Below are positions 8,821 to 29,902 of a stretch of DNA of 30,353 nucleotides, piece after piece. A program made the translations under genes and the position numbers. Under the pieces are notes generated by a model. That model saw only the letters and a program-made list of their open reading frames with translations. It searched no databases and was not told the origin of the DNA. The stretch is from a virus (lineage: Duplodnaviria > Caudoviricetes). Numbering within the stretch: the first letter of the stretch is position 1; each line of letters begins with the position of its first letter. Location: positions 1 through 30,353 of IMG/VR virus record IMGVR_UViG_3300033562_000027; one strand, given 5' to 3'.

Positions 8821-11397
8821 ATGGCAACAATAACCGTGGATACATATTTGGACGGTGGTGTAGCACGTACTGCGGGTGAGACATGGGCATGTAACGGTGG
8901 GCGTTTAACCATCAGGACAGACACTCGTTGGCACGCTAACGCTCCTGCCAGTATGACTGGTACGCTTGGATCGGTAACGATCTCTGCAACGCTTGGTGGT
9001 GGCTACACTGTTGACGGTCGCAACGTGCGCTGGCTGGCTATCACCGGAGGTTCAGGTACTGCTGCTATCGGCACAACTGTTACGCAAGGTGGCGTGTCTG
9101 GATATTTCCTTGGCTATTGGGCATCTCTCACGTCTGCACCTTCTACCACCATCGGGGCTACTGGCTTTATCAAGCTGCGTGAAGTAACGGGCGGGGCGTT
9201 CTCTGCTGGTGCGCTCTCTGGCATCACAGCTACTGCTGCGGGTGCTGATGTAGTGGGCTGGATTGAGGTTATGCAGGATCAGCTATCCAACATCACCGTT
9301 CCACGACTCGGCGACTTTACTGTTCGTGGTGATTGGTTCGATCTTGGAGTAACCACAGGGTCAGCCAACCAGCTTGTGCAACTACCTACCAACGGATCTG
9401 CCACCTGTTACGTTCCCGGCGTGTGGATTGCCAACACCGACACACCGACCACGGATGAACATTACGACTTTTATCCGTCCATTTATGCAGCCGCCATGAT
9501 AACCACCAACTTTGGTACAGACATTCGCAGCCAGTTTGTCTGCATGGAAACCACCGGAGCTGTTCGTATCGGGCATAACGGCACCACGGCGGTTTGCTAT
9601 GTTCCGCCGGCAGGGCGCAAGATCAGGGTGCCCAACGTATTTGGGAGACAGTGCGCCGCAGCGACAAGGGCCACCACCGCTATCCCCCACGCCACCGCAG
9701 CGACACGCCCAGACTTCACTACCACATCAGCCGGTTATATAGACGTTGAGTATTTCCTCAATGATTGGTACTTCCTTCTTGCCCAGCCGTACAACGTAAA
9801 GTTCAACCACTTCGCTACGTTTGATTATATCAACATCAGCGAGTGTGCAACCGCACTTGATATTTATGATGGTGGTAACGGCATCAGCCAGACACTTGAC
9901 GCCAGAACGGTCACGCTTACGTCAAATTTTGCCGGTGGCAGGGTAGAGAAATACACTTCCCACCGTCATCAGGCAGGAACCACAGACCACGCCTTTGAAG
10001 TGCTGTACTGCCAAGGCCAGACCTTCACCAATGTGAAGAGTGGTATTGTCACCTTTGTCCGTTCTTCAGGCGTTGCGTTTCAGGCAACACAGTGTACCGG
10101 CTTAACTTTTGATGGCTGCTACAACTTCAATCAGTCGATCAACTTCACCACCTGTTTCGATTGCACGGTCAATGACCACGATCATACCGATAGATTTGTA
10201 GGGGCGACCACGACAGCTGGCGTCTATGCCATCGTTATCGCTGCATCGTCAGACAATATTGTTGTCGATGGTGTGACGTTCGGGATGCGTGGGCAGATTG
10301 CTAACGTCCATCCTTACACCGGCATTATCAACATGAGCCTATCCAGCAACGTGAAGTTCAGAAACTTTGGAACTCGATCTGCTTATCTTAATGGCGGCAC
10401 TGCCAACCAACCTGCCTACATTTTTATATCAGGCGGCAACAACAGAAACGTAAAGTTCCAACGGATGTACCTTACCCCCACCAGAACCGGAGCAATCAGT
10501 ACGCTTAACTCTGACAAGAACATGACCTATGAGCATGTCTACGGGGATGGTGCAGATGCAATCGTTCTGGCAAGCTTGAACAGTACCGCAAAGAACTGTG
10601 GGGGAACCAGCTCTGTAACTGGTCAGGCATCGGTTTACGGTACTCATTTCTGGGATGCTTTTGTGTCCGATACCGTTGGCAGAATAACCCTGCCAATGAA
10701 CGAGTCAACCGCTGATACTGCCCCCTATGTGACGATAGTGGCAGGTACGCCAAAGTTCACTTCCGCCGGTCAGATAGTTATGCAGAGCCTGAATGATGAA
10801 GTGATCTTTGAACAGCACTATTTTGCCCTTGGAGTTGTCAGTTTCACCAACACCGCCCCCGTTGTCACTGGCACCAACGTAACCTATGTTTCCGGCCCTG
10901 ATTGGGGGAACCACGATATTTATTTCCAGTATGACAAAGGTGCTGGATGGAATGGTAGCTGGCTGGATCTGACTGCTGCAAACCTTGTAGCGGTAGGAGC
11001 TATTGACCCAAGCATAGGGGTGAAGCTGAAATATCGTATTGTCTGTGATGCTGCATCAACAACCAATGCCATTACGTACATCAGAGTGCAGACAGACAGC
11101 ACGCTGGCAGCACAGTCGGCTAACCTATACCCGTTGGATGTGAACACACTGACGTTCACAGGATTACCAACTGGTACGGATATGGTGGTACTTGAGGCGG
11201 GTACGTCTACTATCCTGTATCAGGTGGATTCGTATGGAAGCACAAGTATTCCTTACGTCTATTCAGGAGCAGATACCATTGATGTAGGATTTATTAAGCC
11301 GGGGTATGTACCACAGTATCTTAGAGGTTTAAGCATAGACACTACTGATTCAAGCATTCCAATTTCTCTTACACAAGACCGCAACTATACAGCATAG
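8821..11397 (+). CDS. Large beta-rich virion fibre/spike protein (possible parallel beta-helix)
   Basis: 858 aa, Thr/Gly/Asn-rich. Repeating beta-helix-like turns (QTFTNV, LTFDGC, IVVDGV, VKFRNF, VKFQRM, MTYEHV). Confidence 0.6.
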   Translation: MATITVDTYLDGGVARTAGETWACNGGRLTIRTDTRWHANAPASMTGTLGSVTISATLGGGYTVDGRNVRWLAITGGSGTAAIGTTVTQGGVSGYFLGYWASLTSAPSTTIGATGFIKLREVTGGAFSAGALSGITATAAGADVVGWIEVMQDQLSNITVPRLGDFTVRGDWFDLGVTTGSANQLVQLPTNGSATCYVPGVWIANTDTPTTDEHYDFYPSIYAAAMITTNFGTDIRSQFVCMETTGAVRIGHNGTTAVCYVPPAGRKIRVPNVFGRQCAAATRATTAIPHATAATRPDFTTTSAGYIDVEYFLNDWYFLLAQPYNVKFNHFATFDYINISECATALDIYDGGNGISQTLDARTVTLTSNFAGGRVEKYTSHRHQAGTTDHAFEVLYCQGQTFTNVKSGIVTFVRSSGVAFQATQCTGLTFDGCYNFNQSINFTTCFDCTVNDHDHTDRFVGATTTAGVYAIVIAASSDNIVVDGVTFGMRGQIANVHPYTGIINMSLSSNVKFRNFGTRSAYLNGGTANQPAYIFISGGNNRNVKFQRMYLTPTRTGAISTLNSDKNMTYEHVYGDGADAIVLASLNSTAKNCGGTSSVTGQASVYGTHFWDAFVSDTVGRITLPMNESTADTAPYVTIVAGTPKFTSAGQIVMQSLNDEVIFEQHYFALGVVSFTNTAPVVTGTNVTYVSGPDWGNHDIYFQYDKGAGWNGSWLDLTAANLVAVGAIDPSIGVKLKYRIVCDAASTTNAITYIRVQTDSTLAAQSANLYPLDVNTLTFTGLPTGTDMVVLEAGTSTILYQVDSYGSTSIPYVYSGADTIDVGFIKPGYVPQYLRGLSIDTTDSSIPISLTQDRNYTA

Positions 11398-11409
11398 AAG
11401 GAGTAGCAC

Positions 11410-12795
11410 ATGGCTAAGATAACAAGTAAAACTTCGTTGGTGGTTGGAACCAACCTTGTGATAAACGAGCCAGCCAAGACTATTCAGTTTCTTGCTGCCG
11501 GTGATTTAGTGTTTAAGGATGGGGTCAGTTGGCAAGCACTGTATTCAAAGCTGGTGGACTTGTGGGCTACAAGTACCTATCAAGACTCCCCGTTCCCCTG
11601 CTATGCTATTGACGCATTATCTGGTCAGTTTCAGATTGGTACAGATGGAGCTACATTTTCTGGATGGTCATTCGCAGATGATACGACAAGGAATGCTCTG
11701 CGTGATGGTGGTTGGTCTGAATACTCGGCAGCCGGTGTTTTGTTGCAGCAGTACGCAGGATTCATTGGTCTGGGTTCTATCACCCCTGCTACCACTGTCC
11801 AGCCTTACTATCACTTGGATGCTGCTGACGCTCCTACCGACTTCCCTTTTACAGATCAGTTCAACGTGGGTGTTAAAGTCTATGGTGACAGCACACATGG
11901 TAATTTTGATAAACGTACCTATGCCAAAACCTTCTGCCGTGAGTATGGTAAGAAGTTTAAATCATCTATTCTAGCTGACACTGGTGCAACGGGAACAGGT
12001 GCTAACAAGGTCAACTTCCTCGTATCAAACGAAGACGACCTGAAGATTACCACGCTGCTTGGTACTGATCAGTCTACTGGCGACAGTGCAATGTCAGGTG
12101 CTCCTTACTCTGGTATCACCGTGGCTTACTATACCAGCGATCAAACTAGAACCATTGGAGTCACAGGTTATCCATTCAGAATTATCATTGAAGGCAATGG
12201 CGGAACGCTTGAGCAGATTTACGCAAAGATCCAGTACCTTCTTCGCCAGAACAGTGACATCAACGTGGGTGGCGATGCTGGAACAGTAACAGGCAAGACT
12301 GCTGCTGATCTGCTTACTTTTGTTGGGGACACACTGGTAACTGCTACAGGCGTTTATATTGATGACGTACTTGCTGCTGACAGTAACCGTGTTGAATTTT
12401 ATGACAAGAACGCTGTCAAGCGCACCAACCCCTATACTGCTGCTGGCAACATGGCATTTAACTCAGTGCTGGTCGGAGCAGGATCTTCTTATCGACTTAT
12501 GTTTACTACTGGGCCGGGTGCTGGTGATGACTTTGGTGAATCTGGTGCTATAACTGTTCAAGATGCAGACGACAATCCTATTACTGGAGCTATCGGCACA
12601 GGGACCATTGCTTTTACCTTTGACTACGACGGAGACACGCTTGGTGGTACAGCAGGTACGGACAAGCCTGTTACGTTAATTGGTATTCGCCCCGGCTCCG
12701 GTAAGTATGCCGTTGCTACAGGCTCCCTATCTCGATCAAAAGGCATCAGTCTGTCGTTGGTAGCAGAAGCAGATCGTGTGTACTCAGCAGCGTAA
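11410..12795 (+). CDS. Putative virion structural protein
   Basis: GAAGGAG RBS. 461 aa, Thr/Gly-rich, with N-terminal DGVSWQALYSKLVDLW...PFP. Confidence 0.6.
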   Translation: MAKITSKTSLVVGTNLVINEPAKTIQFLAAGDLVFKDGVSWQALYSKLVDLWATSTYQDSPFPCYAIDALSGQFQIGTDGATFSGWSFADDTTRNALRDGGWSEYSAAGVLLQQYAGFIGLGSITPATTVQPYYHLDAADAPTDFPFTDQFNVGVKVYGDSTHGNFDKRTYAKTFCREYGKKFKSSILADTGATGTGANKVNFLVSNEDDLKITTLLGTDQSTGDSAMSGAPYSGITVAYYTSDQTRTIGVTGYPFRIIIEGNGGTLEQIYAKIQYLLRQNSDINVGGDAGTVTGKTAADLLTFVGDTLVTATGVYIDDVLAADSNRVEFYDKNAVKRTNPYTAAGNMAFNSVLVGAGSSYRLMFTTGPGAGDDFGESGAITVQDADDNPITGAIGTGTIAFTFDYDGDTLGGTAGTDKPVTLIGIRPGSGKYAVATGSLSRSKGISLSLVAEADRVYSAA

Positions 12796-12804
12796 GGGGA
12801 TCTT

Positions 12805-13383
12805 GTGGCTAAGTTCGAGTTTGACGGACCAAACAAGAGAATAATTATGAAGGACGACACTGTGATAAATGGTGTCTCATCCTTCTCTGTTACAGAGCTA
12901 TGGACAGAGTGGTGCGATTGGATGGTGCTTGACGATAACCTCAAGTATGCACCAGCCTTAGATTCTCTGATGGTGCCCCTGTCAGCAACTGAGTTTGTAG
13001 GACCGTACTTGTTTATGAGAAATGATCTAGGATGGATGGGTGTACCACCACAAGTCAATCCATGTACCGTTATGATCGAGGGTTCGTTCTTTGGTTCAGA
13101 CCCAAACTCTCCAGTTATGGTGAATCACACGGCACAGGCAACAGATCTTATTATAAACAGATCAACCTTGACCTCGACAATGGTTACAAGCGGAGTATCT
13201 GGACCAACAGCGGCTGAGATAGCAGCAGAAGTATGGAACGCATTGATAGACAACTACGTCAATCCAGAGTCAGCCGGTTATGCCCTGGCAAATCTAAGCG
13301 GTGGCAGCGGTTCGTTGACGCAAGAGCAGAATGACCAGCTTATGAATACACTAACCACAGCGACATTTATAGGCATGAAGTAG
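12805..13383 (+). CDS. Putative virion structural protein
   Basis: GTG start with GGGG RBS. FDGPNKRI...ELWTEWCDW...NLKY pattern plus an 'AEIAAEVW' element seen in phage fibre proteins. Confidence 0.55.
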   Translation: MAKFEFDGPNKRIIMKDDTVINGVSSFSVTELWTEWCDWMVLDDNLKYAPALDSLMVPLSATEFVGPYLFMRNDLGWMGVPPQVNPCTVMIEGSFFGSDPNSPVMVNHTAQATDLIINRSTLTSTMVTSGVSGPTAAEIAAEVWNALIDNYVNPESAGYALANLSGGSGSLTQEQNDQLMNTLTTATFIGMK

Positions 13384-15353: not shown

Positions 15354-15375
15354 GGGGCGGTGTAACAGCCGCCCC
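15354..15375 (+). repeat. GC-rich hairpin after the major capsid gene (copy 1 of a 21-nt repeat)
   Basis: GGGGCGG-TGTAACAG-CCGCCCC, with no U-tract. Confidence 0.7.
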
Positions 15376-15995: not shown

Positions 15996-16024
15996 GGGGC
16001 GGTGTAACAGCCGCCCTTCTTTTT
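15996..16024 (+). terminator. Rho-independent terminator after the head genes (copy 2 of the 21-nt repeat)
   Basis: GGGGCGGTGTAACAGCCGCCC followed by TTCTTTTT. Confidence 0.75.
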
Positions 16025-21201: not shown

Positions 21202-24200
21202 ATGAGCTTGTACGATCTGCAAGAATCTCTTGGAATGAACTCAGCCGGTAACGCGGTGGTTAATCTCTCCGATGCCTTTGGTCAGAATCCAGTTGAACAT
21301 GCTGAACGGCGTAAACTGGAAAAGCAGACAGGTACTCCGGCAACGCTGATGGATGACCCTGAAGTAATGGTAGAGGCCAAGAAACAGGCATATGTAAAGG
21401 GATTGGCTCTCAGCCATACTCCGGCCACGTCAAAGTTTGCAGAGAATCCAAACAATGCTCCGCTGATGTATGATGATATGGACAACCTCACCAGCTTTGA
21501 AGACCGTATCAAAAAGCTGCCGAAACGGTCTATGTCAACAATGGGCATTGCAGGGCCGAAGGATATAGGCACTGCACAGGCGGCATCTGACTTCCTGAAA
21601 TCCACCTCTGATTTTATGGATAAAGCTGTTATCCCTACTCCGGCCAGAGCTTATGCTGCATATCAGCAAGGCACGGGCGGTATGTATCAGTGGATAGGTG
21701 AAATGATAGGATGGGATGGGCTTGCACAGCAGGGCAAGTCTATGCACGAAGATGCAAAAGCTGTTGAAGAGTTTATTCAGAAAGACAAGCAAATAGATCC
21801 CGACTCATGGACAGGTGCAACTGCCGTAGCATTGCAGAGCATGTACCTACAAGCTCCATTGATGGCAGCAGGTTCGCTGGCAGCCACAGTAAGGGGCGCA
21901 ACATCTGTCACCCTGGGCGGCATGGGCATGACCACCGCCGGTCAGACATACGCTGACAGAAGAGAAAAAGGTTTCAGCCCTGTTGCATCTGGATGGTCTG
22001 CCGCGTTTGATGGTGCAGTCGAAGTAGGCACAGAGATCATGCCGACATCCAGAGTCTTTGAAATGTTAAAGCCAACTGCCAAGGCATCGATGGGCAAGCT
22101 GATGACATCCGTTGCCAAATTGTACGGCGAGGAAATGGTGGGAGAATCCATCGCCACGTTCATGCAAGATGCCAATAATCGCTTTATGGGTAATCCTGGC
22201 CAGACTGCCGCGCAGAGAGTTGATGCCATCGGAGAGTATGTGCAATCTGGTGAGGCACTGACAAATTGGCTTAACACTATCAAGACAACTTTTATTCAAA
22301 CATCGCTTATGGCCGGTAGCGCATCTGGAATCAACCGAATCAGATCCTTTGGAAAAGATAGTGTGGCCGGCAGAACTCAACAGCAGGCTGAGCATACTGC
22401 CCAACTGGTTGAAGCAATCATAGCCGCAGAAGGTTCACGGCTCTTGACCAACTCGCCGGAGACATTCACCGAGTTTGCCCAGAGGGTTGGCGAAGAGCAT
22501 GGGCATGATAAGATTTACTTCCAGGCCGACAAGCTGATCAATGAGGCAGTCAATCAAGGTATACCTAAAGCACAGATCCCAGAGTGGTTATCCCAGTACG
22601 GAGTTGATCCGGTACAGCTTGCCACTGATTTGAAGACCGGCGGCACTATTGCCATCGATTTCGGCAGTGCAGTTGCCAACTTCAAAAATGATGGAGTCCT
22701 GCAAGCCCTTCAGAGTGAGTTTCTGGTTTCTCCTGATATGCACGGCTTGGCAGACGCAGAAAAAGGCATACAGATAGAATCAGCTCACCTAGAGCGACTT
22801 AACGATATTTATGCCGCAGATCAGGCCAAAAAGGTCGATGCAGCCGATGTTGAGGCATGGAAACAGGAAATACTAGGCAGGCCGGAGCTTGGCAAGTACA
22901 TCAAGGAGGAACATCTGGACAGCATGGCGGCAAGAGCGAATGCCCTTTCCAAGATGACCGGCATGCCTGCCATTGATTTCGTCAACGAGATGCTGCTGCC
23001 ATACAATATCAAGACAATGCGGTTTAAGGATTTTCAGAAACAGCGTCAAGAAAATGCCGGTATGGATGTCGGTGTTCTTAACGCAATCCGCACTGGCAAC
23101 GGTATCCCTACAGAGTCGCAGGCATACGGGCCGAGTTTGATTGACTTCTTGCGCGACAAGGGCGGGATTAAAGACCAAGGCGGAGAATTGGCAGCAATGG
23201 ATGCACATGCTGCCACAAAGCAGGCATTCAAGAAAAACTTTGTAAATGAATCCGGCATGAACCAGGACACGGCGCGGGAGTTGGCTGTTGAAGCTGGTTA
23301 TCTGAACGCTGATGCGACCATTGCAGACTTACTGGATATGATAGGGGCGGAACTGTCTGGCACTCCGAAGTATTCCGCCAACAACAGAAATGATGCCGTT
23401 GCCAACAAGCTGGAAAAGATCAACGAAACTCGCGCCATGTTTGAGCAGTTCGGTGTTGATCCAACTGGTGACATTGACGAGATACTGCAAAAGCTGTCCG
23501 ACATGCATACCGAGCAGGATGATCTGCCGTTTCAGGCTGATGAAAAAACGGGATTGGTTCAGCGTCCAGATGAAACACTGGAGCAGTTTGTTGATCGGCG
23601 CAACAGTACGCTGCGTGACAAGCTGGTTGCTGAGATGACACCGGAAGAAAAAGACCATGCTCTACTACTAAACGAATTGACGCATATTCCAAACCGTCGG
23701 GCATACCATGAAGACGAGGCAAAAAATGGTGGCCCGATGAAAATCCAGGTTTCTGTTGATGCGGATTCGCTGAAGTTTGTAAACGACAACATGGGGCATC
23801 ATGCTGGCGATAACATGCTTATTGCTATTGCCGAGGCATTGCATAAATCATCCCTTGAGTTAAGCAGTCGTGGGTTTGATGTTAGGGTGTATCATGTTTC
23901 AGGTGATGAGTTTATCGTCCAGAGCGACAACGAAAAGGCCGTGGCATTTATATTAAACTCTGTTGACAAGATACTGGCAGGGAGTATAATTAAATCAGAT
24001 CAGGTCGAAGGGTATTTTGTAGAAACAATCCCCCATATTACCTATGGAGTAGACAACAATGGCAACCTCAAAAGAGCAGATAAGCAACTCCAAGAATCAA
24101 AACGAATTGCCACAGATAGAGGAGTTCGTGCAGAGCGTGGTGAGCCGCCTTACACCACAAAGGTCGTGGACAGATCCGATGACGGGAAGAACTACGACTA

Positions 24201-27200
24201 TAACGATATCAAATCCTTATTCAAAAAATTAGAAGAAGAACGCAAAAAAGCCCGAGAAGAAGCTGCAAAAAAAGGCACAGATCCCGCTGACGTTAATCAC
24301 CCTGACAATGTAGCTGCTAGGTTCGCAAAGCTACTACAGGGCAATCCCCTCTTTCAATCCGCTTGGCACGGCACTCCCCACACATTCGATAAGTCACTTG
24401 CATCTGACGGGATAGGGGATTCCCCTCTTGTCAAGGGCTTTACGAATAGAATGGTATCCGATGCTCAGGTGCTCACTGATTTTGTTAATACTCCACCCTT
24501 TATTGAGAAGGGTCTTGACGGCTTCGATATCCCAACGCAAAACGCGCAACTCAGCAGAGTGGCCAGGCTTATCGAGAACGACAAGATTAGAAAGCTCGTT
24601 GTTGAGTCTATTCCGGTCGATATGATGAACATGCTCATTGAGAAGGAGCTTTCTGCCGATATGCTGCTCCATGATGTGACGGTGTTCAGGGACTTGTTTA
24701 CCCTCGACCGTGATAATTTTGTATCCCTTCCCGTTGATATGACCAGTCGCCTTGTGGATATCGTAGCATTTACGGGAACAAAAGAGCTTCTCTCTTCCCT
24801 TTATGTTGGCAAGGGGGCGGGAAAACTCAACACTGCAAAACTCACACTTAAAAGCTGGCATGATAAATTACCTCCTGATTTTTCAAGCATTATATCAGAA
24901 ACAACAGGGATTACAACTAATAGTATTTTCTCTGATGATGATGTGGCAATTACGGCGATGTACCAATCACAGCAGAACAACTACCTGGCCGCACTTACCC
25001 AAGATGCCGATGGCAACAATGTCGTAAACCTGTTCGCCGCCGCAGACAAATCCTCATTCCTCCATGAAGCAGGGCATATCTTCCTTAACCACCTGAAACT
25101 GGTGGCCGAGAAACACAACCTCCAAACAGCAGAATGGCAGGCCGCAAAAGAATGGTTGGGCATTGGCGATGATGGCATTATCACCCGTGAACAGCATGAA
25201 CAGTTTGCCGAGCATTGGGAAGTATACCTGATGGAAGGTAAATCACCGACTCCTGAACTGCGTGGGGCATTCCGTTCGTTTAAGCGGTGGCTGACTGCCA
25301 TATATGAAAACGTCAAGTCAGGTCGGTTCGGGCAACGTGATGGCATAGTCATCACTCCCGAAATAAAAGATCTGTTTGACCGTTTGCTGGCAACTGAGGA
25401 AGAGATCCAAGAGGCCAAAGACGAAGCTGCCCTGATTGCCATGCTTGATGACAAGATGCTGAACGGCACTGGTTTCTCTGCTGAAGAGATTGCTGCGTAT
25501 CAGAAGATAGTCATGCAGGCAGAAGACTCTGCCCGGGAGCGGATGGACAAGCACAAGATGATCGGCAGGGAAGAGCGTCTGGCCGGATGGAAGGAGCAAG
25601 CCGAGCGTGATGCCCGTGGTGTGCCGGTCTATGCTTTCCAAGAGTGGATGTCAGACATCGGCATTGATCCGAAGTCGGCGGCACAATATGGCGAAGTGCC
25701 AAGCAGGACGGTATTCAAGGCAGAAGGCGAAGACATTAACGTGGCAATTGCCGAACATGGCAGTCAGTTCGGGTATGAGAATGCAACTGACTTCATGCAT
25801 GATGTTAGGACGTACCCTATCCGCCAGCAGTGGATGGAAAAGAGAGTGGCACAGCTTGAAGCCGCTTATGATTTGGCACAGGATACTCAAGAGGCAATCC
25901 GCACTACATCACTCCGCCGTCAACTTGAGCTGGAATCCAACTGGCTGGAGCGCAAAATAAAGCAAAAGCGCATGAGTGAAGAACGGGCGCAGCAAAAGGC
26001 CGAGGCTGTTGATGCTGCCAAACAAGCCGCATACGAGCAGAGATGGGCGCAGGCTGAAGAGGACATGCTCTGGAAGATGGATCAGGCCAAGGCAACCACC
26101 CCGAAAGAAGTAATGAAAGAATGGGCCGAGCGCACGGTTGCAAGTCGCACCATGACAAAGATCCGCAGCATCTCAAAGCTGGTGGCAGAATCCGCCAAGC
26201 ATCGCAAGGAATCAATAGCCGCTGCCCGTGCCGGTGATTGGGAAACCGCTCTACAAAAGAACGAGCAAGCCCGCATGACCGAAGCATTAATCACGGCCAG
26301 TTATGCCGCTGCAAATAAGTTCAAGCAGATGCAGTCACGTTTGGCGAAGATCGCCAAGTGGACAAACGACAACAAGAGCGTGAAGGTCGGTGAAAACTTC
26401 CGTGATCAGATTAACCGGCTGATGCAGCAGTATGCCATTGCCAATAAAGAGTTTAATCCGAACATACCCAGTGTGCAGGACTTCGCCGCTAACCTTATTG
26501 ATGGTGAGGATGATATCGGGGCGGTGCTGCCGGAGTGGATAGGCATTGATCCCACTGACCAAAAGAACCTGACATGGCATGAATTGCAAGAACTGCATGA
26601 TGCCCTGAACTATCTGTATAAGCACGGCAGGGATGAAGTGGAAGGCAAGAAACTGGCAAACGGTCAGTATGTGTCTGCCTATGCCAGCGATATCTTGATG
26701 GCCCAGGGCGATATCAAGGGTATGCCCAACCTGAAATCAGATGCTACCAAATTCGGCAAGCTCTGGCAGGGAGTGCAGAAGGGTTACCGCAAGTTCTTTG
26801 CTAATACCGGCATCCTGCGGTTCATCGCCCAGCGGATGGACGGATACAAGAACATCGGCAAGAACGGCCAGATGGGGCCAGCAGAGCAACTGGTGCAGAA
26901 TGTTATCAATGGAATGGCGGCATCAAATGACCTCTGGATTAAAGTGTCTGCCGAGATTGAACCGCAACTTGCAGTGCTGTTTAAGAACCGCAACCAACAA
27001 CATGATGACCTGCCGTGGCCTTCAAAGCTGACCAATGCTGGCAAGTCGTGGACACATGAGCGGGTTGTGGTTGCTGCTCTTAACATGGGCAACGAGTCCA
27101 ACCTCCAACGGTTGATGGACGGTTATGGCTTAACTGAAAACCATATCCGCTTAATTCAATCCAAGCTGACTGCCGAAGAGTGGCGGGCAGTGCAGAGCAT

Positions 27201-28782
27201 CTGGAACACGATCAACTCACTCTGGCCGCAGGTCGCTGACACCCATGAGCGGCTGAAGTATTACCGGCCAAAGAAGATTGAAGCACAGGGCTTTAGCGTT
27301 ACCACTGCAGACGGGCAACAGTTATTCCTTGATGGTGGTTACTACCCTGCCGCGTATGACAAAGAACTGGATAACGATGCTGCACGTTGGGGTGAAAAGG
27401 AAGATCTGCTTGCATCCCATGAAGCTGTGATGCAAGTGCCTATCGCAAAGTCAGGCTTTGCCAAGAGCAGGGCAGACAGGGTGAACCGTCCAATAGACTT
27501 GTCACTTAATAACCTGTCCGTGCATTTTACCGACATCATCAAATTCATTACACTGGCAGAAGTAACCCGTGATGCGGATAGGGTATTTCAGGACAGAGAG
27601 CTTGTAAACCGCAACATGGAAACCATCGGCCAGGATATGCACAATGCTATTCGTCCGGCACTGCAAAACGTACTGCGTCCAGAAAGACGATTAGCGGGTG
27701 GCTTGCTTGAGCGTGGCCGAGTGGCAATGTCAACCTTCTATATGGGATATAATGCATGGACTGCCATCCAGAACGTGACCGGAGTATTCCCTGCTATTCG
27801 TCAAGTCGGATTCAACAACTACCTTGACGGAATTGCACAGACAATCAGCAATCCATTGAAGTCCCATAAAGCTATGTTGCAGATGTCTGGATATATGCGG
27901 CTGCGTGAAACAAACATTGAACGCGAATTAAAGGGTCAAATCAGCGACTTCAAAATCGGCGGCATGGAGATTAACGGCAAACGCTACACGTTCAAAGATG
28001 TGCAGTCACTGGCATTCGCCGGTATCAGGCTGATTGACAGCATAGTAGCCCTGCCCGCATGGTATGGTCGCTATAACTCGGAGATGGAAAAGCATGGCGA
28101 TATGCAGCGGGCTGTTGAATCTGCCGACTCTTCAATAAACAAGGCTCTGGGGTCTGGTCTGGCAATAGACTCCACCGGCACCGGGCGGCATCAGATCTGG
28201 TCACTGTTCGCCCCGTTCATGTCCTTTGCCTCAACTCAGCAGGAAGTGCTTACAACCGAAAGGCAGGCATGGAAGGAAGGCAAGATAAGCACCAGCGAAT
28301 TTCTTTATGGACACCTTATGACCTGGCTGGCTCCGGCCATTATGTCAACATTCCTTCAGGGTGCGTTGATGTACGGACTCATGGGGGCAATCGGTGGTGG
28401 TGATGACGACAAGCGCGAGAAAGGTGGCATGGATTATCTGACAGACATTTTGTCTTACCGGATGATGGGCATACCCTATCTGAGAGATATCTTTAACGGT
28501 GTCATTCAAGGTGTTGAAAAGAAAGCACCGATAACATCGGCGAGAATGCCAATAGCAGAAGCATTCAGGATGGCACAGCAGTTGGGCTATCGCATGGGCA
28601 ATATGGATGGATCAGAGAAAACTGTAAAGGCCGCGATGTGGTCGGCAGCAGAACTGACATCACTTTACTTGCATATCCCTGCTACCAGAATTTTTGAGCG
28701 GTGGCAGAAGGGAACAAAAAACATCGAATCCGGTCATGGATGGTGGGGTAATCACTTCATCCCGCAGGAAAAGAAAAAGTAG
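21202..28782 (+). CDS. Giant internal virion/ejection polyvalent protein with GGDEF, ART-like remnant and HExxH peptidase modules
   Basis: 2526 aa, in the last ejection-protein slot before the tail fibre. SGDEF at aa 900-904, AWHGTPHTFDK at aa 1054, FLHEAGH at ~aa 1288. Confidence 0.85.
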   Translation: MSLYDLQESLGMNSAGNAVVNLSDAFGQNPVEHAERRKLEKQTGTPATLMDDPEVMVEAKKQAYVKGLALSHTPATSKFAENPNNAPLMYDDMDNLTSFEDRIKKLPKRSMSTMGIAGPKDIGTAQAASDFLKSTSDFMDKAVIPTPARAYAAYQQGTGGMYQWIGEMIGWDGLAQQGKSMHEDAKAVEEFIQKDKQIDPDSWTGATAVALQSMYLQAPLMAAGSLAATVRGATSVTLGGMGMTTAGQTYADRREKGFSPVASGWSAAFDGAVEVGTEIMPTSRVFEMLKPTAKASMGKLMTSVAKLYGEEMVGESIATFMQDANNRFMGNPGQTAAQRVDAIGEYVQSGEALTNWLNTIKTTFIQTSLMAGSASGINRIRSFGKDSVAGRTQQQAEHTAQLVEAIIAAEGSRLLTNSPETFTEFAQRVGEEHGHDKIYFQADKLINEAVNQGIPKAQIPEWLSQYGVDPVQLATDLKTGGTIAIDFGSAVANFKNDGVLQALQSEFLVSPDMHGLADAEKGIQIESAHLERLNDIYAADQAKKVDAADVEAWKQEILGRPELGKYIKEEHLDSMAARANALSKMTGMPAIDFVNEMLLPYNIKTMRFKDFQKQRQENAGMDVGVLNAIRTGNGIPTESQAYGPSLIDFLRDKGGIKDQGGELAAMDAHAATKQAFKKNFVNESGMNQDTARELAVEAGYLNADATIADLLDMIGAELSGTPKYSANNRNDAVANKLEKINETRAMFEQFGVDPTGDIDEILQKLSDMHTEQDDLPFQADEKTGLVQRPDETLEQFVDRRNSTLRDKLVAEMTPEEKDHALLLNELTHIPNRRAYHEDEAKNGGPMKIQVSVDADSLKFVNDNMGHHAGDNMLIAIAEALHKSSLELSSRGFDVRVYHVSGDEFIVQSDNEKAVAFILNSVDKILAGSIIKSDQVEGYFVETIPHITYGVDNNGNLKRADKQLQESKRIATDRGVRAERGEPPYTTKVVDRSDDGKNYDYNDIKSLFKKLEEERKKAREEAAKKGTDPADVNHPDNVAARFAKLLQGNPLFQSAWHGTPHTFDKSLASDGIGDSPLVKGFTNRMVSDAQVLTDFVNTPPFIEKGLDGFDIPTQNAQLSRVARLIENDKIRKLVVESIPVDMMNMLIEKELSADMLLHDVTVFRDLFTLDRDNFVSLPVDMTSRLVDIVAFTGTKELLSSLYVGKGAGKLNTAKLTLKSWHDKLPPDFSSIISETTGITTNSIFSDDDVAITAMYQSQQNNYLAALTQDADGNNVVNLFAAADKSSFLHEAGHIFLNHLKLVAEKHNLQTAEWQAAKEWLGIGDDGIITREQHEQFAEHWEVYLMEGKSPTPELRGAFRSFKRWLTAIYENVKSGRFGQRDGIVITPEIKDLFDRLLATEEEIQEAKDEAALIAMLDDKMLNGTGFSAEEIAAYQKIVMQAEDSARERMDKHKMIGREERLAGWKEQAERDARGVPVYAFQEWMSDIGIDPKSAAQYGEVPSRTVFKAEGEDINVAIAEHGSQFGYENATDFMHDVRTYPIRQQWMEKRVAQLEAAYDLAQDTQEAIRTTSLRRQLELESNWLERKIKQKRMSEERAQQKAEAVDAAKQAAYEQRWAQAEEDMLWKMDQAKATTPKEVMKEWAERTVASRTMTKIRSISKLVAESAKHRKESIAAARAGDWETALQKNEQARMTEALITASYAAANKFKQMQSRLAKIAKWTNDNKSVKVGENFRDQINRLMQQYAIANKEFNPNIPSVQDFAANLIDGEDDIGAVLPEWIGIDPTDQKNLTWHELQELHDALNYLYKHGRDEVEGKKLANGQYVSAYASDILMAQGDIKGMPNLKSDATKFGKLWQGVQKGYRKFFANTGILRFIAQRMDGYKNIGKNGQMGPAEQLVQNVINGMAASNDLWIKVSAEIEPQLAVLFKNRNQQHDDLPWPSKLTNAGKSWTHERVVVAALNMGNESNLQRLMDGYGLTENHIRLIQSKLTAEEWRAVQSIWNTINSLWPQVADTHERLKYYRPKKIEAQGFSVTTADGQQLFLDGGYYPAAYDKELDNDAARWGEKEDLLASHEAVMQVPIAKSGFAKSRADRVNRPIDLSLNNLSVHFTDIIKFITLAEVTRDADRVFQDRELVNRNMETIGQDMHNAIRPALQNVLRPERRLAGGLLERGRVAMSTFYMGYNAWTAIQNVTGVFPAIRQVGFNNYLDGIAQTISNPLKSHKAMLQMSGYMRLRETNIERELKGQISDFKIGGMEINGKRYTFKDVQSLAFAGIRLIDSIVALPAWYGRYNSEMEKHGDMQRAVESADSSINKALGSGLAIDSTGTGRHQIWSLFAPFMSFASTQQEVLTTERQAWKEGKISTSEFLYGHLMTWLAPAIMSTFLQGALMYGLMGAIGGGDDDKREKGGMDYLTDILSYRMMGIPYLRDIFNGVIQGVEKKAPITSARMPIAEAFRMAQQLGYRMGNMDGSEKTVKAAMWSAAELTSLYLHIPATRIFERWQKGTKNIESGHGWWGNHFIPQEKKK
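23668..24110 (+). other. GGDEF (diguanylate cyclase-like) domain within the giant protein
   Basis: NELTHIPNRR, DADSLKFVNDNMGHHAGDNML, HVSGDEF (SGDEF at 23899-23913) and LKRADKQLQESKR match the GGDEF blocks DxLTxLxNRR, DxDxFKxxNDxxGHxxGD, RxGGDEF and RADxALYxAK. Confidence 0.88.
23963..23990 (+). promoter_or_regulatory. Consensus sigma70 promoter inside the GGDEF coding sequence
   Basis: TTGACA (23963-23968), 16-nt spacer, TATAAT (23985-23990). Both hexamers are perfect. Confidence 0.75.
24059..24232 (+). CDS. Overprinted 57-aa ORF in the +1 frame of the giant gene
   Basis: Below the ORF-track cut-off. GGAG at 24046-24049, 9 nt before the ATG, ~70 nt downstream of the perfect promoter. Translates to MATSKEQISNSKNQNELPQIEEFVQSVVSRLTPQRSWTDPMTGRTTTITISNPYSKN. 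Confidence 0.5.
   Translation: MATSKEQISNSKNQNELPQIEEFVQSVVSRLTPQRSWTDPMTGRTTTITISNPYSKN
24394..24861 (-). CDS. Nested antisense HNH homing-type endonuclease (Zn finger + HNH + HTH)
   Basis: CEFC...FCSRKC zinc finger, EHRHIMEQHIGRKL..NEHVHHIDRNRLNNELSNL HNH motif and C-terminal GWSINKISEHLSIGYHSIRKAL HTH. RBS AGGAGGT lies 8 nt upstream. Confidence 0.9.
   Translation of the reverse strand: MPAFKCEFCSVEFSRPLANIKGREKLFCSRKCYDIHKATGHINGKGYKIITVEGKQVPEHRHIMEQHIGRKLLLNEHVHHIDRNRLNNELSNLVVLDKPGHSAELRVLRWDIEAVKTLLNKGWSINKISEHLSIGYHSIRKALDKRGIPYPVRCK
24870..24916 (-). promoter_or_regulatory. Promoter and RBS of the antisense HNH gene
   Basis: On the minus strand: TTGTAA (24916-24911), 16-nt spacer ending in TGA, TATAAT (24894-24889), i.e. 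an extended -10. AGGAGGT at 24876-24870. Confidence 0.8.
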
Positions 28783-28831: not shown

Positions 28832-29902
28832 ATGACGATATCCAGTCAGACCAGAATAGCGGGGCCATTTACTGGCAACGGAATTACCACGACATTTCCG
28901 TTTGCCTTCAAGGTCTTCTCTGTTGATGAAGTAGATGTAGTCGTTGGAACAGACGGTGTCGAATCAACACCCACCATCAACAGCGACTATACAGTAACGC
29001 TCAACGCTGACCAGAATACAAACCCTGGCGGGTCAATAAATACGACAACTCCGCTTGCAGTGAGTAGCGTCCTTGTTATCACTTCCAGCGTTGAACTGCT
29101 GCAACCTGTTGACCTCACCAACCAAGGCGGTTTTTATCCCTCTGTAATTAACGATGAGTTTGACCGGCTGACTATTATCACTCAACAACTGCAAGAGCAA
29201 CTTGGCAGATCTTTGCAGGTAAGTCTAACATCTGGTGTAATTCCCACTGATTATCTTGGCGAATGCGAACTGTCCGCTTCTAATGCCGCTGCAAGTGCCG
29301 CCGATGCTGCCGCCGCTGAACTGGCTGCTGAAGCTGCTGCAAGTGTACTGTCTGACGGGGACAAAGGCGACATAACCGTATCCGGTAGTGGTGCAACGTG
29401 GACTATTGATAATGCCGCAGTAACCTACGCAAAACTTGCAACTGATGTTTATGACAGGGTTGTGCAGCGAGTTGAGGCGACGCCTTATACTTCAGTCGCA
29501 ACTGTCTCATCTACTTTCCCTGTTGATGACACTATTCCACAGAATGACGAAGGTTACGAGTTGATGACTGTCACAATCACACCAAAATCTTCAACTAATA
29601 GGCTAATTATATCTTTTGATACTGCACTATCGAAATTAGCCACAGGGAATATAATTATTGCTTTGTTTCAAGATTCAAACGCCAATGCTATTGCGTCCAG
29701 CTTAACATCTAATGAAGATGGATATGCGTCTAGAGATGGAATAGTACATGAAATGGCCGCTGGCACAACAAGTGCAACCACTTACAAAATTAGAGTTGGT
29801 GTGGGAGCAGGTAGTCTTACAATAAACGGTATAGCAACTAATAACCGATATTTGGGCGGTAGTATGGCAGCTAGATTGTCTGTGACGGAGGTACGAGCAT
29901 GA
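28832..29902 (+). CDS. Tail fibre protein (T7 gp17-type N-terminal attachment domain)
   Basis: MTISSQTRIAGPFTGNGITTTFPFAFKVF...QPVDLTNQGGFYP..IND.FDRLTI, then an Ala-rich linker, DGDKGDITVSGSG and a C-terminal ITPKSSTNRLII beta-sandwich. Confidence 0.85.
   Translation: MTISSQTRIAGPFTGNGITTTFPFAFKVFSVDEVDVVVGTDGVESTPTINSDYTVTLNADQNTNPGGSINTTTPLAVSSVLVITSSVELLQPVDLTNQGGFYPSVINDEFDRLTIITQQLQEQLGRSLQVSLTSGVIPTDYLGECELSASNAAASAADAAAAELAAEAAASVLSDGDKGDITVSGSGATWTIDNAAVTYAKLATDVYDRVVQRVEATPYTSVATVSSTFPVDDTIPQNDEGYELMTVTITPKSSTNRLIISFDTALSKLATGNIIIALFQDSNANAIASSLTSNEDGYASRDGIVHEMAAGTTSATTYKIRVGVGAGSLTINGIATNNRYLGGSMAARLSVTEVRA

What the first reader, a model, noticed from the sequence alone, without database searches (positions are those of the whole stretch)
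23963..24232. Perfect sigma70 promoter and overprinted 57-aa ORF inside the GGDEF cassette
Seen: TTGACA-N16-TATAAT is embedded in the codons for VDKILAGSII. It is followed by GGAG-N9-ATG, which opens a 57-codon +1-frame ORF overlapping the C-terminal part of the GGDEF domain. Inference: this is a second nested gene that host RNA polymerase could transcribe early or in a lysogen, independently of the late operon. It could be a cognate inhibitor or immunity peptide that travels with the cyclase cassette. Alternatively the promoter could produce antisense RNA against the convergent HNH transcript, or drive a C-terminal fragment of the giant protein.
Basis: partly seen in the sequence, partly recalled or inferred. 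Interest (0 to 1): 0.78.

Follow-up and report, generated by a model that had tools for sequence, protein, structure and literature searches.

The report
Hidden promoter-driven gene inside phage cyclase
Inside the gene for a giant phage virion protein lies a second, 57-codon reading frame with its own consensus promoter and ribosome-binding site; related phages keep this layout, and the small protein is predicted to bind, and likely restrain, the c-di-GMP-cyclase-like domain it overlaps.

Summary
Relatives show it is not chance. A +1 ORF with start codon and ribosome-binding site lies at this place in 27 of 48 giant GGDEF genes (codon-shuffle null 4.4±1.7; elsewhere in the same genes 2.6% against 2.6%). 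In the window's clade, 5 of 6 loci with DNA keep both a promoter and the ORF, although silent sites are saturated; outside the clade the promoter is mostly absent. A complex model docks the peptide on the back of the GGDEF domain (0.87, best control 0.02), away from the catalytic loop. Best reading: a host-RNA-polymerase-driven hidden gene for a cognate regulator, likely an inhibitor, of the injected cyclase. Not shown: transcription, translation, cyclase activity, or inhibition versus activation. The window's peptide is not detected by the profile of the sister-group peptides. Antisense control of the HNH and a C-terminal fragment are not supported. The scan already reported this nested GGDEF gene on other DNA (e1-6324605); the conserved embedded promoter is what this window adds.

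The parts
21202..28782 (+). Host gene: 2526-aa polyvalent, predicted virion-ejected protein (LPD22 at the N-terminus, GGDEF domain)
   Evidence: ORF; Pfam LPD22 26-104 and GGDEF 825-969; phrog_9880; follows tail-nozzle, internal virion protein and endolysin-like genes
23674..24108 (+). GGDEF domain (SGDEF signature at 23899; DxDxLKxxNDxxGHxxGD intact; no RxxD at the canonical I-site position)
   Evidence: Pfam E 6e-8; model pLDDT 94.7; Foldseek best hits all diguanylate cyclases, E 5.7e-10
23963..23968 (+). -35 hexamer TTGACA
   Evidence: same position in L063 and L071
23985..23990 (+). -10 hexamer TATAAT; start site predicted near 23996-23997, not measured
   Evidence: -10 at the same nucleotide in L063, L071, L001
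24046..24049 (+). Shine-Dalgarno GGAG, 9 nt before the ATG (moderate, -5.9 kcal/mol)
24059..24232 (+). Nested +1-frame gene, 57 aa: disordered N-terminal tail, helix 20-30, beta-hairpin 34-38/45-49 (predicted)
   Evidence: positional conservation; complex model

Best explanation
A sigma70-type promoter, a ribosome-binding site and a 57-codon gene are overprinted in the +1 frame at the end of the GGDEF domain of a giant phage protein and are kept in related phages; the small protein is predicted to dock on that GGDEF domain and likely holds its cyclase activity in check. Shown: the elements, their conservation beyond codon-level chance, and the GGDEF fold. Inferred: the giant protein is made late, packaged and ejected with the DNA; host RNA polymerase fires the embedded promoter soon after entry, or in a carrier or lysogenic state. 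Predicted: the peptide's helix packs between GGDEF helices 62-85 and 107-122 and its last strand pairs with GGDEF residues 124-127 (domain numbering; add 804 for the full protein). Inferred and untested: binding switches off the injected enzyme after entry, keeps newly made copies silent in the producer cell, and may neutralise enzyme injected by sibling phages. In the sister group, which mostly lacks the promoter, the peptide would be translated from the late mRNA together with its target.
For: (1) +1 ATG + SD + 40 or more open codons at codons 40-62 after SGDEF in 27 of 48 giant GGDEF loci; null 4.4±1.7, max 9 of 150; local-usage null 4.5±1.8; control tiles elsewhere in the same genes 118 of 4555 against 117.5 expected. 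(2) +1 stops are depleted: 20 against 39.7±4.6 in 45 loci. (3) In the sister group the +1 frame is more conserved than the host frame over the same DNA (local score 27.2 vs 19.3; shuffled 15-17). Its profile finds 67 independently called proteins, most of them 45-70 aa. All 3 further loci from a later scan carry the ORF. (4) Promoter: 11/12 or better at the identical nucleotide in L063 and L071, 2 of 54 other loci against 0.135 expected anywhere in the region. In the window's clade (10 rows, SH-aLRT 99, quick tree), 5 of 6 loci with DNA have a promoter score at p 0.02 or less and the ORF; L051 has neither. Four-fold silent sites are saturated, 18 of 66 identical between the window and these four relatives. 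Of 60 homologous proteins only P0003 and P0023, the closest relatives of promoter-bearing loci, can encode 11/12 or better there. (5) Complex model: 0.87 against best control 0.02; this mark was reached by 116 of 157 solved and 2 of 215 mismatched pairs; the runs agree in at least 97% of contacts; partner pLDDT at least 88. The interface lies outside the DNA shared by the two frames. (6) Five short or stand-alone GGDEF loci, among them Bordetella phage CN1 gp42, lack the sister-group peptide.
Against: No transcript, start site, translation or enzyme activity was measured. The sister-group profile does not detect the window's peptide or its clade's peptides, so their homology to that family rests on position. 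Within the clade, +1 conservation is weak and no higher than host-frame conservation (19.2 vs 19.6; shuffled 15.2 and 16.5), and the host frame there is itself predicted to be structured. The predicted site omits the SGDEF loop and the substrate and metal residues, so inhibition would have to be allosteric or steric. Outside the clade only 6 of 42 loci reach p 0.1 or less for a promoter; over a wider upstream window L064 falls to p 0.12. 21 of 48 giant loci fail the strict ORF test and several have no such ORF. Whether the phage is temperate is unknown. The promoter weights were recalled, and the complex used my own alignments, which mix both peptide groups.
Confidence: 0.5

Rival explanations
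1. The gene and promoter are real and the peptide binds the GGDEF domain, but as an activator or adaptor: it would dimerise or target an injected domain that has no evident dimerisation module, so that cyclase activity starts only after phage DNA is transcribed.
For: Same conservation and complex evidence; the predicted site leaves the catalytic face free; a cyclase-activator complex exists, SiaD-SiaC 7e6g (entry title only).
Against: Short stand-alone phage GGDEF genes lack the peptide, so the domain family does not always need it. In the promoter-less sister group the peptide would be made late, in the producer cell, where activation is harder to rationalise (inference).
Confidence: 0.2
2. 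The nested gene is real but acts on a host target unrelated to the GGDEF domain; it is an early accessory gene that uses tolerant coding space.
For: The sister-group module also occurs in longer called proteins whose N-termini do not look like GGDEF shadows (P0089, P0090, P0091; genomic context not obtained). Earlier scan notes report other nested genes in giant phage genes (unchecked).
Against: In the fetched loci every profile hit with E below 0.01 lies at the GGDEF end; the complex model passes and falls to 0.00 when the GGDEF chain is replaced.
Confidence: 0.15
3. In this phage promoter and ORF are by-products of the GGDEF amino-acid sequence and have no function.
For: Val-Asp and Ile-Ile codons supply 8 of 12 consensus bases for free, and P(11 or better)=0.086 given these residues; the window's peptide matches no profile; the finding was picked after the fact from a very large scan.
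Against: Independent relatives keep both elements with saturated silent sites. The product of the ORF probabilities of the four other positive clade loci is about 3e-6 (L051 negative).
Confidence: 0.08
4. The promoter exists to make antisense RNA against the convergent HNH gene, or to express a C-terminal fragment of the giant protein.
For: The geometry is convergent, about 400 nt from the HNH stop codon. L011 also has a perfect sense promoter facing the same HNH cassette, and L078 has an antisense HNH right behind its +1 ORF.
Against: L063, L071, L001 and L064 keep the promoter without any HNH, and P0003 has an ART-like segment in place of the HNH. No conserved in-frame SD+start was seen. Interference with the HNH could still be a side effect.
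Confidence: 0.05

Closest known systems
Lambda Rz/Rz1 embedded spanins (PMC6139136; abstract and passages read)
   Same: A small gene embedded in the +1 frame of a larger phage gene; the two products form a complex.
   Different: Rz1 is an outer-membrane lipoprotein for lysis. Here a soluble peptide is predicted to bind an enzyme domain, has its own embedded sigma70 promoter, and occupies about 2% of a 7.6-kb gene. That Rz1 is read from the late transcript is recalled.
Salmonella rhs-CT/rhsI modules expressed from promoters inside the rhs ORF (PMC7043789; passages read)
   Same: Promoters inside a large delivered-effector gene give expression uncoupled from the delivery genes; effector plus cognate partner.
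   Different: There the internal promoter makes the toxin domain itself, and the immunity gene is a separate downstream gene (the latter recalled). Here the promoter lies within the effector domain and serves an overprinted partner only.
Polyvalent proteins with GGDEF domains (Iyer et al. 2017, PMC5512222; passages read)
   Same: The host gene: LPD22 and GGDEF in a large, predicted packaged and injected phage protein.
   Different: In the main text 'promoter' and 'overlap' do not occur and the 'nested' passage shown concerns a protein fold; no nested partner gene appeared in the passages I saw. Its supplements were not read.
SiaD-SiaC cyclase-activator complex (PDB 7e6g; entry title only)
   Same: A small protein partner controlling a GGDEF cyclase; best fold match of the domain.
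   Different: Chromosomal, separate genes; no sequence or fold link of the peptide to SiaC was found.
Earlier scan finding e1-6324605 (AI note on another genome)
   Same: A conserved second-frame gene at the end of a phage GGDEF domain, proposed to dock on it.
   Different: The lines shown mention no promoter. This window belongs to a clade with a divergent peptide and a conserved embedded promoter.

Membership tests
Functional nested (overprinted) gene | Start codon, SD and open frame conserved beyond what the host frame forces | tested here: met
   27 of 48 against 4.4±1.7; control tiles not enriched; 5 of 6 in the window's clade
Functional nested (overprinted) gene | Amino-acid conservation in the nested frame | tested here: inconclusive
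   Met in the sister group (27.2 vs host frame 19.3); weak in the window's clade (16 of 24 against 32 of 67 still encodable in P0003)
Functional nested (overprinted) gene | Transcribed and translated | not testable with these tools
   No expression data could be examined
Sister-group +1 peptide family (L-x-E-W/F-L-x-x-L-P-x-G-x-K motif) | Significant score against the family profile | tested here: not met
   Window peptide scores about -1 bit; held-out members L070, L065, L067, L088, L104 were recovered. Positional counterpart only.
Sigma70 promoter | Consensus hexamers, 16-18 nt spacer, conserved in relatives | tested here: met
   12/12, spacer 16; L063 and L071 11/12; L001 and L064 weaker
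Sigma70 promoter | Mapped start site or activity | not testable with these tools
   needs 5' RACE or a reporter
Diguanylate cyclase (GGDEF) | Fold, metal- and substrate-binding residues, signature loop | tested here: met
   Pfam, PDB profile and Foldseek; DxDxLKxxNDxxGHxxGD intact; signature SGDEF with His in place of the usual Arg in 44 of 49 giant loci (the usual Arg is recalled)
Diguanylate cyclase (GGDEF) | Makes c-di-GMP | not testable with these tools
   product and activity unknown
Effector-immunity (type II toxin-antitoxin-like) pair | Direct binding of partner to effector | tested here: inconclusive
   The model supports binding but does not show it: 0.87 vs best control 0.02
Effector-immunity (type II toxin-antitoxin-like) pair | Partner neutralises the effector's activity or toxicity | not testable with these tools
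   needs co-expression and enzyme assays
Spanin Rz1 | Lipoprotein signal with Cys; host gene a membrane i-spanin | tested here: not met
   The peptide has no Cys and no hydrophobic signal; the host frame is a GGDEF domain

The most novel reading that the evidence does not exclude
Injected effector domains of phage polyvalent proteins carry their own antidote genes written in a second frame of the same DNA. Here a GGDEF cassette encodes a proteinaceous cyclase inhibitor with a new binding mode, and in one clade also encodes its promoter in the very codons of the surface that the inhibitor binds. Enzyme, off-switch and timing would then move between giant genes as one indivisible module.
Probability: 0.4. 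Interest if true: 0.85.

Novelty: new variant of a known kind. Interest (0 to 1): 0.7.

Why it matters
If right, it shows how a phage can package a second-messenger enzyme without upsetting the producing cell, and switch it off after delivery. It offers a 40-residue candidate inhibitor of a GGDEF domain at a site away from the active site. It also shows that standard annotation misses conserved genes and promoters inside giant phage ORFs. The pair is small and can be tested at once in a laboratory E. coli strain.

Tried and rejected
A first pass over 38 loci (duplicates included) by pairwise alignment found no promoter and no ATG at the exact aligned position; a wider set and a variable start position overturned this. 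A pattern scan for GDEF plus promoter in viral contigs gave 118 stretches, of which four were GGDEF relatives (L107, L174, L180 repeat known contigs; L104 new), so no new promoter-bearing locus. Sequencing runs: no RNA holder listed; one DNA holder that may be the source; the laid contigs gave no strain variants over the element. No family or fold for the peptide: Pfam and PHROGs, ESM Atlas no usable hit, Foldseek PDB no match at E 0.001 or better; the wider fold search was not obtained. No Rfam hit in the window. General enrichment of strong promoters in giant genes: 8 sense sites against about 1.3 expected in 62 ORFs, but 4 of the 8 are the window, L011, L063 and L071, so no general claim is made. 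A weak profile hit behind the CN1 GGDEF gene is an antirestriction protein and was taken as chance. No context was found for the longer proteins bearing the module. A protein search with the HNH antisense translation found only the window's own protein. The careful tree did not finish; the quick tree was used. The DNA of P0003 and P0023 could not be obtained. Paper searches (listings and abstract starts only unless stated) found no report of a nested gene or promoter in phage GGDEF domains. The library lacks most subscription papers, and supplements were not read.
Full report
Setting. The window is the structural module of a podovirus with Bbp16/Bbp19-type genes: terminase, portal, capsid, tail nozzle, internal virion protein, an endolysin-like protein, then a 2526-aa gene at 21202-28782 with LPD22 and a GGDEF domain at residues 825-969. 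This fits the polyvalent proteins that Iyer et al. predict to be packaged and injected, some with GGDEF domains (PMC5512222, passages read). The domain models at pLDDT 94.7 and its best fold matches are diguanylate cyclases. The metal- and substrate-binding motif is intact; the signature is SGDEF. Activity and product are unknown.

Observation. All coordinates hold: -35 at 23963, 16-nt spacer, -10 at 23985, GGAG at 24046, ATG at 24059, stop ending at 24232, +1 frame. It is the only perfect site in the window, with about 0.009 expected. Given the amino acids, synonymous resampling gives 12/12 with P=0.008 and 11 or better with P=0.086. In a large scan this alone could be chance, so relatives decide.

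The nested ORF is a family trait. I gathered 55 distinct GGDEF loci (window included), at 27-49% identity to the window's domain. A first pass on part of them, at exactly aligned positions, was negative. Allowing the start to vary, 27 of 48 giant loci have a +1 ATG with SD and 40 or more open codons at codons 40-62 after SGDEF; the synonymous null gives 4.4±1.7 (local codon usage 4.5±1.8). The same test tiled over the rest of these genes gives 118 of 4555 against 117.5 expected. +1 stops are halved over the ORF: 20 against 39.7±4.6 in 45 loci. 21 of 48 loci fail the strict test; some of these are family members with weaker starts, others have no ORF. In 26 of 55 loci the peptide ends in a shared helix-LPxG-strand motif. 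There the +1 frame is more conserved than the host frame (27.2 vs 19.3; shuffled 15-17). A profile of 23 such peptides found 67 called proteins, most of them 45-70 aa. Three further loci from a later scan all carry the ORF. Five short or stand-alone GGDEF loci, including Bordetella phage CN1 gp42, lack this peptide. The loci are related, so these counts are not independent events, but silent sites are saturated in the pairs I checked (below).

The window's peptide is divergent. Profiles built without the window's clade recover held-out members but not the window's peptide or those of L063, L071, L001 and L064. In this clade +1 conservation is weak and no higher than that of the host frame, whose extension is itself predicted to be structured. 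L231 and L226 look intermediate in the alignment, by eye only. I therefore treat the window's peptide as a positional counterpart, not a proven member. It models as a disordered tail, a helix and a beta-hairpin, with no family or fold match.

The promoter is a clade trait. L063 (TTGACA-16-TATCAT) and L071 (TTGATA-16-TATAAT) have 11/12 sites at the identical nucleotide: 2 of 54 other loci, against 0.135 expected anywhere in the region. A quick tree puts them with the window in a 10-row clade (SH-aLRT 99). Of its six members with DNA, five have a weighted promoter score at p 0.02 or less. These include L001 (TTGGAA-17-TACACT, same -10 position) and L064 (TTGACA-17-GATGCT, 17 nt upstream). The same five have the ORF; L051 has neither. 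The weights were recalled, and over a wider window L001 gives p 0.04 and L064 p 0.12. Four-fold silent sites between the window and these four relatives match at 18 of 66, the chance level, so plain inheritance of DNA does not explain the match. Of 60 homologous proteins only P0003 and P0023 can encode 11/12 or better at this place. P0003 allows 12/12, although six of the ten residues differ. Outside the clade 6 of 42 loci reach p 0.1 or less, about as expected by chance.

What the peptide does. The one complex job, GGDEF domain plus peptide residues 16-57, scored 0.87 against a best control of 0.02. This mark was reached by 116 of 157 solved and 2 of 215 mismatched pairs; the runs agree in at least 97% of contacts and the partner's pLDDT is at least 88. 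My own alignments were used, so the counts hold only roughly. The peptide's helix sits between helices 62-85 and 107-122, and its last strand pairs with residues 124-127, which include the promoter-encoded Ser-Ile-Ile. These residues lie upstream of the DNA shared by the two frames, so shared nucleotides cannot create the signal. The catalytic loop (96-100) and residues 49, 51, 54, 57, 62 and 66 are not among the confident contacts. That this back face carries the allosteric site in cellular cyclases is recalled. The model supports binding; it does not show it, and it says nothing of the sign of the effect.

Mechanism. Most likely the giant protein is made late and injected (inferred), and the embedded promoter gives host-polymerase expression of the peptide after entry or in a carrier state (inferred). 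The peptide then binds the GGDEF domain (predicted) and restrains it (inferred from linkage to the giant, predicted virion-borne versions and by analogy to effector-immunity pairs). I put the gene being real at about 0.9, the promoter at 0.85, binding at 0.7 and inhibition at 0.5. Activator or adaptor (0.2), an unrelated target (0.15) and chance (0.08) remain.

The promoter persists in four relatives without an HNH in 4.2-5.7 kb of downstream host frame, and P0003 has an ART-like segment where the window has the HNH. The promoter is therefore older than the HNH insertion and not made for it. No conserved in-frame start follows it in the three loci printed.

Known and new. A +1 embedded gene whose product binds the host-frame product is known from lambda Rz/Rz1 (PMC6139136, passages). 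Promoters inside a delivered-effector gene are known from Salmonella rhs (PMC7043789, passages). My paper searches found no report of this element. The scan's own notes report the nested GGDEF gene on another genome (e1-6324605) and other nested genes in giant phage genes; I saw these after my own tests, and they are not independent support. Verdict: real feature, new variant of a known kind, interest 0.7.

Noticed in passing
window 24861-24394 (-), promoter 24916-24889; L011 3881-4459; L078 9050-8586; L013 about 335-710: An HNH endonuclease gene with its own extended -10 promoter and AGGAGG sits antisense and in codon register inside the giant gene, replacing the interior of an ART-like segment that P0003 retains. 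A 72%-identical HNH sits the same way, between similar flanks, in an unrelated giant gene (L011); L078 and L013 have related antisense insertions. The HNH genes of the window, L011 and L078 have no TTA, CTA or TCA codon, so the host frame stays open. It resembles the ShiLan element (PMC11855218, abstract and one passage read; the words 'antisense' and 'opposite strand' do not occur there) but lies on the opposite strand; no intein or intron signature came up in the Pfam and Rfam scans.
   Followed up: partly
L011 5727-5533 (-): A second perfect TTGACA-16-TATAAT, with AAGGAGG and a 48-codon +1 ORF, lies inside an unrelated giant gene just before a JAB/RadC-like segment (named from its motif, not scanned); the peptide has no relative among the fetched loci.
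   Followed up: partly
window 23593-23601; GGDEF homologues: A DRR/ERR arginine motif often precedes the GGDEF domain in this family; it recalls c-di-GMP-binding arginine-rich motifs (from memory).
   Followed up: no
window 24148-24249: The host frame under the nested gene is a clade-specific extension predicted to be well structured (strand 183-186, helix 196-212 of the domain model), so both frames may be constrained.
   Followed up: partly
proteins P0089, P0090, P0091, P0118: The sister-group peptide module occurs at the C-terminus of a Sel1-repeat protein and twice in P0090; P0118 joins a GGDEF piece to the peptide frame, possibly through a sequence error.
   Followed up: partly
window 19595-19568 (-) and 29633-29606 (-): Further 11/12 and 10/12 promoter-like sites with 16-nt spacers on the minus strand; no long ATG-started ORF was evident in the 300 nt behind them.
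   Followed up: partly
window 15354-15375 and 15996-16017: Two near-identical GC-rich hairpins flank the gene after the major capsid gene.
   Followed up: no
window 8821-13383: Three genes (858, 461, 192 aa) without a Pfam family, and at most one weak unnamed PHROG match, interrupt the portal-to-capsid block; a Pgp3-like C-terminal domain is in the tail fibre at 28832-29902.
   Followed up: no
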